Source of the DNA: Rozella allomycis CSF55
Lineage: Eukaryota
Direction: 5' to 3'
DNA: 64,000 bases
NCBI GenBank assembly: GCA_000442015.1
Contig: KE561045.1
Span: 1 to 64,000, forward strand
This document shows, piece by piece, positions 54,338-56,181 of the stretch (positions are counted from its first letter, which is position 1; each line of letters begins with the position of its first letter). The notes under the pieces are model-generated. The model did no database searches. It was given only the letters and a program-made list of their open reading frames with translations, and had not been told where the DNA came from. The translations under genes and the position numbers were made by a program.

Positions 54338-56181
<1,844 letters not shown>

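What the first reader, a model, noticed from the sequence alone, without database searches (positions are those of the whole stretch)
55658..55684. Non-canonical GT-TG intron in glycerol kinase (best-constrained case)
GG|GTAAACAATTAATCCTAACGTTTAATG|A ACT GTC TTA GGA ATG ACT. Read-through hits an in-frame TAA. The nearest AG (55694-55695) gives a frameshift. Removing 27 nt ending in TG restores APYW...AKGTVLGMT, matching the conserved glycerol kinase APYW...ARG.I.GLT. This is one of four introns here that need a TG acceptor, about 3% of the roughly 140 I read. That is far above the rate usual for spliceosomal introns, and implies a spliceosome that tolerates UG at the 3' splice site (inference).
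Basis: partly seen in the sequence, partly recalled or inferred. Interest (0 to 1): 0.9.

Follow-up and report, generated by a model that had tools for sequence, protein, structure and literature searches.

The report
Two GT-TG introns in glycerol kinase
A glycerol kinase gene of the parasitic fungus Rozella allomycis can be read as an intact enzyme only if two of its twelve tiny introns end in TG instead of the near-universal AG, but no RNA data were available to show that they are spliced that way.

Summary
The window matches Rozella allomycis CSF55: its exons equal the public protein EPZ33755.1. It carries a glycerol kinase gene (54338-56181, + strand) with 12 introns of 26-31 nt. Removing 55658-55684 (27 nt, GTAAAC...AATG) gives a 504-aa protein that scores 637.0 bits against a profile of 61 homologues. 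The best canonical alternative (51 nt, GT-AG) scores 612.2. The 60-nt intron used by both public annotations scores 604.5.

A second intron in the same gene, 54791-54818 (28 nt), also has no usable GT-AG solution and ends in TG.

Contigs of three DNA runs gave no listed base difference at the first site, though that list was cut. They listed no indel anywhere in the gene. They confirm the second TG on a different haplotype. Listed differences inside the gene are 8 synonymous and 4 non-synonymous, so it does not look like a pseudogene.

Both TGs have an AG 10-11 nt downstream. That is the TG-AG tandem layout known from 36 human genes.

No RNA evidence exists here, so splicing at TG is inferred. 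Verdict: probably a new member of a known rare intron class. A UG-tolerant spliceosome genome-wide is untested.

The parts
54338..56181 (+). Glycerol kinase gene (FGGY family). ATG at 54338, TAA stop at 56179-56181, 13 exons and 12 introns, 504 codons.
   Evidence: Spliced model has no internal stop. It scores 637.0 bits against an HMM of 61 homologues. Pfam FGGY_N and FGGY_C match the public model P0124. P0124 is identical to the window in shared exons.
55658..55684 (+). Intron A, the finding. 27 nt, GTAAAC...TTTAATG, phase 2, inferred GT-TG. The cut can also be written one base to the left as GG..AT with the same product.
   Evidence: No listed difference in contigs of X1, X2 or X4 (table cut).
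55685..55717 (+). 33 nt coding the conserved strand and helix start ([11 protein letters not shown]). Exonic in my model. Removed as intron by both public annotations.
   Evidence: Aligns to the profile's aivGltrattk and to IFGLTRGTEKE of 3g25_A. Deleting 8 or 11 of these residues costs 24.8 or 32.5 bits.
55694..55695 (+). Nearest downstream AG, 11 nt after the TG. Using it gives a 38-nt intron and a frameshift.
   Evidence: 12 internal stops, 466.6 bits.
54791..54818 (+). Intron B, a second inferred GT-TG intron. 28 nt, GTAAAG...ATTTTG.
   Evidence: The flanking exon frames require a length of 1 mod 3 from the only GT donor. Among such lengths from 19 to 40, only 28 ends in G (read). It has the top score among lengths tried, although 22, 25 and 31 are within 2.1 bits. 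In X2, four substitutions lie inside it while the donor and TG are unchanged.
54827..54828 (+). Nearest downstream AG, 10 nt after the TG of intron B. Using it gives a 38-nt intron and a frameshift.
   Evidence: 28 internal stops, 122.0 bits.
54466..54496 (+). Canonical intron, 31 nt, GTA..AG.
54586..54612 (+). Canonical intron, 27 nt. In frame and stop-free, and read through as protein in both public models.
54691..54716 (+). Canonical intron, 26 nt.
54957..54983 (+). Canonical intron, 27 nt. Uses the second AG of TTAGAG.
55079..55106 (+). Canonical intron, 28 nt. Skips an internal AG that ends at intron position 21.
55210..55236 (+). Canonical intron, 27 nt.
55429..55455 (+). Canonical intron, 27 nt.
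55535..55560 (+). Canonical intron, 26 nt.
55918..55944 (+). Canonical intron, 27 nt.
56089..56116 (+). Canonical intron, 28 nt. Missed by both public models, which stop inside it.

Best explanation
Both segments are genuine spliceosomal (U2-type) introns of the organism's standard tiny size, and productive splicing ends at TG rather than AG.

Inferred mechanism: in this genome the 3' cut appears to be placed mainly by distance, 26-28 nt from the GTA donor. A G at the last intron position is kept, and U replaces A at position -2. An AG lies 10-11 nt downstream in both cases, as in the TG-AG tandems described in human genes. There, the AG is thought to serve early intron recognition and the TG is chosen at the second catalytic step.

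Splicing at the downstream AG would give 38-nt introns and frameshifted, non-productive mRNA. The gene may therefore yield a mixture of products and be expressed inefficiently.

Shown: the DNA, the frames, the homology and the polymorphism pattern. Inferred: that RNA is actually joined at TG, the distance-ruler idea, and the role of the downstream AG.
For: 1. Homology. The TG model scores 637.0 bits. Alternatives at site A score 620.6 (39 nt, GG-AG, same product as GT-GG), 612.2 (51 nt) and 604.5 (60 nt). Among 143 stop-free canonical (GT-AG, GC-AG, AT-AC) models enumerated around both sites, the best at site A is 612.2 and the best GT-AG at site B is 614.9. Profile and PDB alignments place a 9-residue gap exactly over the 27 nt.

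2. Intron-likeness. 119 of 122 predicted introns start with GTA and 76 of 122 are 26-28 nt. Only 4 of 122 exceed 39 nt. Lengths of 27 and 28 nt are therefore modal, and 38, 51 and 60 nt are outliers.

3. Not a sequencing artefact. Table 4, which carries no note of being cut, lists no indel inside the gene in X1, X2 or X4. X2 record 13 (53866-55024) has 5 differences, all listed. Four lie inside intron B (54803, 54804, 54807, 54808), and its donor and TG are unchanged. X1 record 5 (54809-55024) has 1 difference, which is listed, so its TG is unchanged too. The second public protein reads F-Y-F-E across the site, so it has T or C there, not A. No row is listed for 55658-55717.

4. Rival junctions at site B are destroyed in X2. 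The 54803 T>A change removes the AT of the AT-AC option, and 54808 G>A removes the GT of the 46-nt option.

5. Constraint. Listed differences inside the gene comprise 8 synonymous, 4 non-synonymous and 5 intronic. This gives dN/dS of 0.14, with binomial P = 0.001. Even if 3 unlisted differences were all non-synonymous, dN/dS would be 0.24 with P = 0.007.

6. When each of the 15 non-AG dinucleotides was allowed in turn as acceptor in my gene finder, TG gave the largest score gain: +7.0, against +4.3 for the next best, TT.

7. Precedent. TG is the documented non-AG acceptor in human U2 introns, always with an AG within 28 nt (PMC2374985; abstract, section on structural and sequence characteristics, and discussion read).
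Against: - No RNA evidence of any kind. The only RNA run, X12, laid nothing but 18-23-nt scraps.
- Both TG introns sit in one gene, which also fits a gene-specific defect.
- At site B, homology does not fix the 3' end. Lengths 22, 25 and 31 score within 2.1 bits of 28.
- In human cells, AG>TG mutants activate neighbouring AGs rather than the TG (PMC2374985, section on structural and sequence characteristics). Here that would give frameshifts.
- The intron A acceptor has A at -3, not the pyrimidine preferred at human TG sites.
- The downstream AG is not statistically remarkable. 50 of 99 canonical introns have an AG within 15 nt downstream, and 35 of 99 within 11 nt.
- The difference table was cut, with 65 of 105 rows hidden. 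Up to 1 (X1), 2 (X2) and 22 (X4) unlisted differences lie somewhere in the contigs that span site A.
- The second public protein differs from the window at 7 exonic residues, and the matching synonymous count is unknown.
- The intron length statistics come from my own predictor, whose prior favours 24-30 nt.
Confidence: 0.6

Rival explanations
1. Decaying or crippled gene. Two acceptor AGs mutated to TG. Transcripts are spliced at the next AG (38-nt introns) or not at all, and no functional glycerol kinase is made.
For: - Both lesions are in one gene.
- An AG 10-11 nt downstream is available at both sites.
- Human AG>TG mutants use neighbouring AGs (PMC2374985).
- No RNA holder was listed for the gene.
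- Recalled, not tested here: the organism is an obligate endoparasite with reduced metabolism.
Against: - There is no other lesion in 504 codons or in the other 10 introns.
- dN/dS is 0.14, P = 0.001, among the listed differences.
- The TG at site B is shared by at least two haplotypes that have since diverged at 4 sites inside that intron. Constraint has therefore continued with the TG present.
- Two independent hits that are both A>T at position -2 are about a 1-in-36 outcome if the six possible single-base changes of an AG were equally likely. This is my arithmetic, not a call.
Confidence: 0.25
2. The public annotation is right at site A. A canonical 60-nt (or 51-nt) GT-AG intron removes 11 (or 8) residues, and the enzyme lacks that segment.
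For: - Both are in frame and stop-free with GT-AG ends.
- Both deposited models use the 60-nt form.
Against: - They cost 32.5 and 24.8 bits against the family profile.
- The removed 33 nt encode, in frame, the conserved G-x-T strand that aligns to solved structures. An intron would not keep that.
- Only 4 of 122 predicted introns exceed 39 nt.
- This reading does nothing for site B, where the public models instead drop the conserved T-G-x-P-I-S-T-Y-F-S-A region.
Confidence: 0.08
3. Assembly or base-call error. The true sequence has AG at 55683-55684, or an indel that makes the 38-nt intron fit the frame.
For: - The window carries 17 single Ns, so the assembly has uncertain bases.
- The difference table was cut.
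Against: - Contigs of three DNA runs span the site, with no listed substitution at 55658-55717 and no listed indel in the gene.
- A difference shared by all three runs at more than 230 nt from contig ends should have ranked among the rows kept. This is my inference from which rows were shown.
- The same unusual end occurs at a second intron, where it is confirmed letter for letter in X2 and X1.
Confidence: 0.04
4. Other non-canonical junctions give the real product. At site A this would be a 39-nt GG-AG (same product as GT-GG) intron that loses three residues. At site B it would be an AT-AC 25-nt intron (54802-54826).
For: The site B AT-AC model scores 636.2, nearly equal to 637.0. The site A 39-nt model is stop-free.
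Against: - The site A model scores 16.4 bits lower.
- The site B AT donor is changed to AA in X2.
- The site B model ignores the GTAAAG donor, although 119 of 122 introns start with GTA.
- By recall, U12-type introns have the consensus ATATCC at the donor. The sequence here reads ATATGC.
Confidence: 0.03

Closest known systems
TG-AG tandem 3' splice sites of human U2-type introns (Szafranski et al. 2007, PMC2374985; for example GNAS intron 3, named in PMC4176328)
   Same: - GT donor of ordinary U2 type.
- TG as the terminal dinucleotide.
- Purine at +1.
   Different: - In human genes the TG is always an alternative to a productive AG isoform and makes up about 0.02% of sites.
- Here the AG isoform would be frameshifted, so the TG junction would be the only productive one.
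- Two such sites occur among the 12 introns of one gene.
- The introns are only 27-28 nt long.
- Use of the TG is inferred, not seen in RNA.
Rare GT-TG junctions catalogued in another fungus, Ganoderma lingzhi (22 of about 92,000 junctions, 0.024%; PMC11590231, Table 1 passage read)
   Same: Same dinucleotide class, in a fungus.
   Different: - That catalogue rests on transcript data and does not describe dependence on TG for the reading frame.
- The frequency here is 2 of roughly 125-135 predicted introns, but from one 64-kb window and one gene.
Yeast 3' splice-site UAG>UUG reporter mutants and their prp8 suppressors
   Same: U at position -2 of the 3' splice site is used at reduced efficiency in the second step.
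   Different: Those are engineered mutants. Here the sites would be natural and fixed. No look at Prp8 or other factors was possible because the genome is not held.
Public gene models EPZ33755.1 and RKP19198.1 (Rozella allomycis CSF55, 481 aa)
   Same: Same locus. EPZ33755.1 is identical to the window in shared exons.
   Different: The public models allow only canonical junctions. As a result they:
- delete 11 conserved residues at site A;
- read through intron B and then skip the conserved region after it;
- read through intron 54586-54612;
- miss the last intron and the conserved C-terminus.

Membership tests
U2-type GT-TG intron (TG-AG tandem acceptor) | Ordinary U2-type 5' splice site | tested here: met
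   The donors are GTAAAC and GTAAAG. The local consensus is GTA in 119 of 122 introns, with A at +4 in 82% of the 99-intron set.
U2-type GT-TG intron (TG-AG tandem acceptor) | The exon-exon junction lies directly after TG | tested here: inconclusive
   Homology and frame demand it at site A, with an advantage of 16-33 bits. At site B only the frame and the terminal G single out 28 nt. There is no cDNA.
U2-type GT-TG intron (TG-AG tandem acceptor) | An AG acceptor within 28 nt of the TG | tested here: met
   AG at 55694-55695 (11 nt downstream) and at 54827-54828 (10 nt downstream). This is not unusual by chance: 35 of 99 canonical introns have an AG within 11 nt downstream.
U2-type GT-TG intron (TG-AG tandem acceptor) | TG and AG junctions are both seen in transcripts (alternative use) | not testable with these tools
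   No RNA run held the gene.
U2-type GT-TG intron (TG-AG tandem acceptor) | Pyrimidine at -3 and purine at +1 | tested here: inconclusive
   Site B reads T-T-G|A and meets both. Site A reads A-T-G|A and meets only the +1 purine. In this genome, -3 is A in 35% of canonical introns.
U12-type (minor) intron | Donor consensus [AG]TATCCTT and a branch-site box near the 3' end (consensus recalled) | tested here: not met
   The donors read GTAAAC and GTAAAG.
Glycerol kinase (FGGY carbohydrate kinase family) | FGGY_N and FGGY_C domains over the full length | tested here: met
   Pfam hits on the public model P0124: PF00370 at 7.5e-54 and PF02782 at 3.2e-28. My model scores 637.0 bits against 61 glycerol kinases. 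29 PDB glycerol kinase sequences match the junction region.

The most novel reading that the evidence does not exclude
In Rozella the spliceosome places the 3' cut of its 26-28-nt introns mainly by distance from the donor. It accepts UG as a constitutive 3' splice site, needed for the only productive mRNA. TG acceptors would then occur at around 1% of introns genome-wide, some fifty times the 0.02% reported for human and for Ganoderma.
Probability: 0.25. Interest if true: 0.7.

Novelty: new member of a known kind. Interest (0 to 1): 0.5.

Why it matters
If TG junctions are really used, they would be natural, fixed, frame-critical non-AG acceptors in an early-diverging fungal lineage with ultra-short introns. 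That would give a simple system for asking how the second catalytic step chooses its site when intron length is nearly fixed.

There is also a practical result. Both deposited gene models for this enzyme appear to be wrong in four places because annotation pipelines allowed only canonical junctions. Other Rozella models may share the fault, which would bias metabolic reconstructions of this lineage.

Tried and rejected
- **RNA evidence.** No RNA holder was listed for the gene. The one RNA run, X12, laid only 18-23-nt scraps on 10 kb. A near-length protein search found no close fragment that could come from spliced transcripts: 2 hits at 38% and 44% identity.
- **Own genome.** It is not held. 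No genome-wide count and no look at splicing factors was possible.
- **Relatives.** A metagenome scan with the 77-aa exon gave 3 loci at 54-62% identity over 26 residues. The one I opened, L002, has an unbroken 499-aa ORF and looks prokaryotic. No orthologous intron could be compared.
- **Earlier notes of this scan.** None were found.
  - A filter that needed at least 30 open codons on each side and no canonical alternative left 0 TG cases. It also rejected the two glycerol kinase ones, so it was too strict.
  - A gene finder that allowed TG found the two glycerol kinase sites plus 7194-7221 on the minus strand. The latter lies in a linker and has a canonical 73-nt alternative.
  - Other oddities the gene finder flagged were resolved canonically: 10739-10758 is part of a 56-nt intron, and 58921-58948 is an ordinary 27-nt intron.
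- **Read-through under a changed genetic code.** Rejected. The gene ends in TAA, and the segment holds both TAA and TGA.
- **Split gene.** An N-terminal ORF ending at TAA 55659-55661 plus a second ORF from ATG 55698, as my finder proposed when non-canonical ends were penalised. Rejected as a biological reading, because it would cut the fold inside a conserved strand.
- **Literature.** Searches for Rozella with intron and splice terms, for GT-TG and for a Rozella transcriptome found no paper that describes non-canonical introns in Rozella.

Full report
**What the window is.**
The region has about 35% G+C. It is packed with genes broken by very short introns. The best protein match to the junction region is a Rozella allomycis CSF55 protein (P0002 = RKP19198.1, 481 aa). 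Its cluster mate P0124 (EPZ33755.1) is identical to the window's translation in every shared exon. The window therefore corresponds to that assembly. TAA ends the gene, so the standard code applies. No whole genome is held for it.

**The gene.**
I built a model from the three reading frames, a profile HMM of 61 full-length glycerol kinases fetched, and coordinates checked.
- ATG at 54338, stop at 56179-56181.
- 13 exons, 12 introns, 504 codons, no internal stop.
- 637.0 bits against the profile.
- Ten introns are GTA...AG of 26-31 nt.

**The finding, site A (55658-55684).**
- Read-through meets TAA at once, and TAA TGA at the end of the segment.
- The next AG (55694-55695) gives a 38-nt intron, a frameshift, 12 stops and 466.6 bits.
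- Taking out the 27 nt leaves the profile alignment unbroken, with a 9-residue insert exactly over the segment. The same is seen against solved glycerol kinase 3g25_A.

They give in-frame GT-AG introns of 51 nt (to 55708) and 60 nt (to 55717). Both public models use the 60-nt form and so lack 11 residues.

| Junction model at site A | Score (bits) |
|---|---|
| 27 nt, TG | 637.0 |
| 39 nt, GG-AG (same product as GT-GG) | 620.6 |
| 51 nt, GT-AG | 612.2 |
| 60 nt, GT-AG | 604.5 |

I enumerated every GT-AG, GC-AG and AT-AC pair around the site that leaves the whole product stop-free. Of the 143 such models over both sites, none at site A scored above 612.2. The 33 nt that the public models discard encode, in frame, a conserved strand and helix start. 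They are worth about 3 bits per residue, which an intron would not preserve.

**A second case, site B (54791-54818).**
- The exon before it and the exon after it lie in different frames.
- From the only GT donor (GTAAAG at 54791), the intron length must be 1 mod 3.
- The AG at 54827-54828 gives 38 nt, the wrong frame, 28 stops and 122.0 bits.
- Among admissible lengths from 19 to 40, only 28 ends in G (read), and it ends in TG.
- Homology alone does not fix this end. Lengths 22, 25 and 31 score within 2.1 bits of 28.
- The best canonical rivals are an AT-AC pair at 54802-54826 (636.2 bits) and a 46-nt GT-AG at 54808-54853 (614.9 bits).

**Is the DNA right?**
Contigs of three DNA runs and one RNA run were laid on 50500-60500.
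- Indels: the indel table, which carries no note of being cut, lists 3 events, none in the gene.
- Site B in X2: record 13 (53866-55024) has 5 differences, all listed. They are 54803, 54804, 54807 and 54808 inside intron B, plus 54942. So the donor and the TG are the same on a haplotype that has diverged at 4 of the 28 intron positions.
- Those changes also destroy the AT donor (54803) and the GT donor (54808) of the two canonical rivals at site B.
- Site B in X1: record 5 (54809-55024) has one difference, which is listed, so its TG stands too.
- The second public protein reads F-Y-F-E across site B. This excludes A at 54817 in that assembly.
- Site A: X1 record 6 and X2 record 14 (both 55150-55921) and X4 record 19 (53668-57937) span it. 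No row is listed between 55361 and 56586.
- Caveat: only 40 of 105 difference rows were shown. By my count 1, 2 and 22 differences of those three contigs are unlisted.
- A T>A change shared by all three runs, far from contig ends, should have been among the best-supported rows kept. That is my inference.

**Is the gene alive?**
The listed differences inside the gene are 5 intronic, 8 synonymous and 4 non-synonymous. With 326 synonymous and 1186 non-synonymous sites, this gives dN/dS of 0.14 and binomial P = 0.001. If three unlisted differences were all non-synonymous, the figures would be 0.24 and P = 0.007. The TG at site B predates the split of these haplotypes, so constraint on the protein has continued with the TG in place. 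A weakness is that the second public protein differs from the window at 7 exonic residues, and I could not count the matching synonymous changes.

**How typical are these introns?**
A simple Viterbi gene finder that I wrote predicted 122 canonical introns in long genes.
- 119 start with GTA.
- 76 are 26-28 nt.
- 4 exceed 39 nt.

Its prior favours 24-30 nt, so the peak is partly imposed, but the sharpness within 26-28 is not. Apart from GTAA at the start and a weak A/T before AG, the introns carry little information and no fixed branch motif (99 introns). In 33 of those 99, an AG lies unused 2-14 nt upstream of the AG that keeps the frame. This suggests that distance matters more than the first AG. 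These are predictions, not RNA data.

**How many TG introns are there?**
I allowed each of the 15 non-AG dinucleotides in turn as acceptor, for GTA donors and lengths of 25-30 nt. TG gave the largest gain in total score (+7.0; the next was TT at +4.3) and three hits. These are the two glycerol kinase sites and 7194-7221 on the minus strand. The latter lies in a linker between two domains and has a canonical 73-nt alternative with good ends. Other oddities flagged by the finder resolved canonically. I therefore confirm 2 of roughly 125-135 predicted introns, both in one gene, not 4.

**Comparison with what is known.**
- TG is the documented non-AG acceptor of human U2-type introns. It was found in 36 genes, always as an alternative to an AG no more than 28 nt away, at about 0.02% of sites. 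AG>TG patient mutations activate neighbouring AGs instead (PMC2374985; abstract, section on structural and sequence characteristics, and discussion read).
- PMC4176328 names GNAS and TSPYL2 examples (passages read).
- A transcript-based catalogue of the fungus Ganoderma lingzhi lists 22 GT-TG junctions among about 92,000 (PMC11590231; passage with Table 1 read).
- For Rozella, PMC8042348 reports fungal intron medians down to 29 bp and the highest gene density in R. allomycis (passages read). PMC8476143 gives 2.5 introns per kb (passages read). Neither mentions non-canonical ends.
- My searches found no paper that does. Supplements were closed.

Both sites here have an AG 10 or 11 nt downstream, which fits the tandem rule. 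However, 35 of 99 ordinary introns also have one within 11 nt, so this is consistency, not proof. The difference from the human cases is that here the AG product would be out of frame, so the TG junction would be the only productive one.

**Verdict.**
The intron reading is well supported by homology, length, polymorphism and constraint.
- Splicing at TG remains an inference, because no RNA was available.
- I put 0.60 on genuine TG-spliced introns. They probably work as TG-AG tandems, with inefficient or mixed splicing.
- I put 0.25 on a crippled gene spliced at the downstream AGs, and 0.08 on the canonical 51/60-nt reading at site A. The remainder goes to sequencing error or other odd junctions.
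- The wider claim, that the spliceosome is UG-tolerant at about 3% of introns, is not supported beyond this one gene.

Noticed in passing
window 10710-10765 (+): A 56-nt GT-AG intron made of two back-to-back intron-like units of 29 and 27 nt, each GTAA...AAG, with no exon between them. It joins the end of a CDC24 calponin-type domain (profile positions 1-80 of 89 in the exon before it) to the exon that carries the RhoGEF domain. It could be a duplicated tiny intron or a case of two-step (recursive) removal.
   Followed up: partly
window 54338-56181 (+): Besides the two TG sites, both public protein models of this gene (EPZ33755.1, RKP19198.1) read the stop-free 27-nt intron 54586-54612 as protein. 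They also miss the last intron, 56089-56116, and so lose the conserved C-terminal segment.
   Followed up: yes
window 50500-60500: The laid DNA contigs differ from the window and from each other at about 0.3-0.8% of positions. X1 and X2 contigs break at the same coordinates, and at 55125 and 55149 two contigs of one run overlap with different letters. RKP19198.1 differs from the window at 7 exonic residues. This looks like two or more haplotypes in the cultured strain.
   Followed up: partly
window 53487, 53578, 53634-53668: X2 has 8 extra letters behind 53487. X4 has one extra T behind 53578 and skips 33 nt next to the N at 53667. X1 and X2 contigs end with loose ends at 53666-53668. This is a locally unstable or misassembled spot between genes.
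   Followed up: no
window 20199-20217, 44257-44273, 41956-42003 (+): Predicted same-strand neighbouring genes are separated by only 15-46 nt between stop and next ATG. Either the intergenic spacers are extremely short or some pairs are single genes that my finder split.
   Followed up: no
whole window, 99 predicted canonical introns: 33 of 99 introns contain an unused AG 2-14 nt upstream of the AG that keeps the reading frame. No positioned branch-site motif is visible. This hints that the 3' site is chosen by distance.
   Followed up: partly
window 56230-57330 (-): An intron-free 367-codon ORF of Sel1 repeats (Pfam PF08238, 2.3e-50) converges on the glycerol kinase gene. The two stop codons lie about 46 nt apart.
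   Followed up: partly
window 1250-1700 (-): The same protein segment of about 45 residues, ending in a G-K-T-type loop, occurs twice within 400 nt in different frames, next to an N at 1384. It may be a tandem paralogue or a broken duplicate.
   Followed up: no
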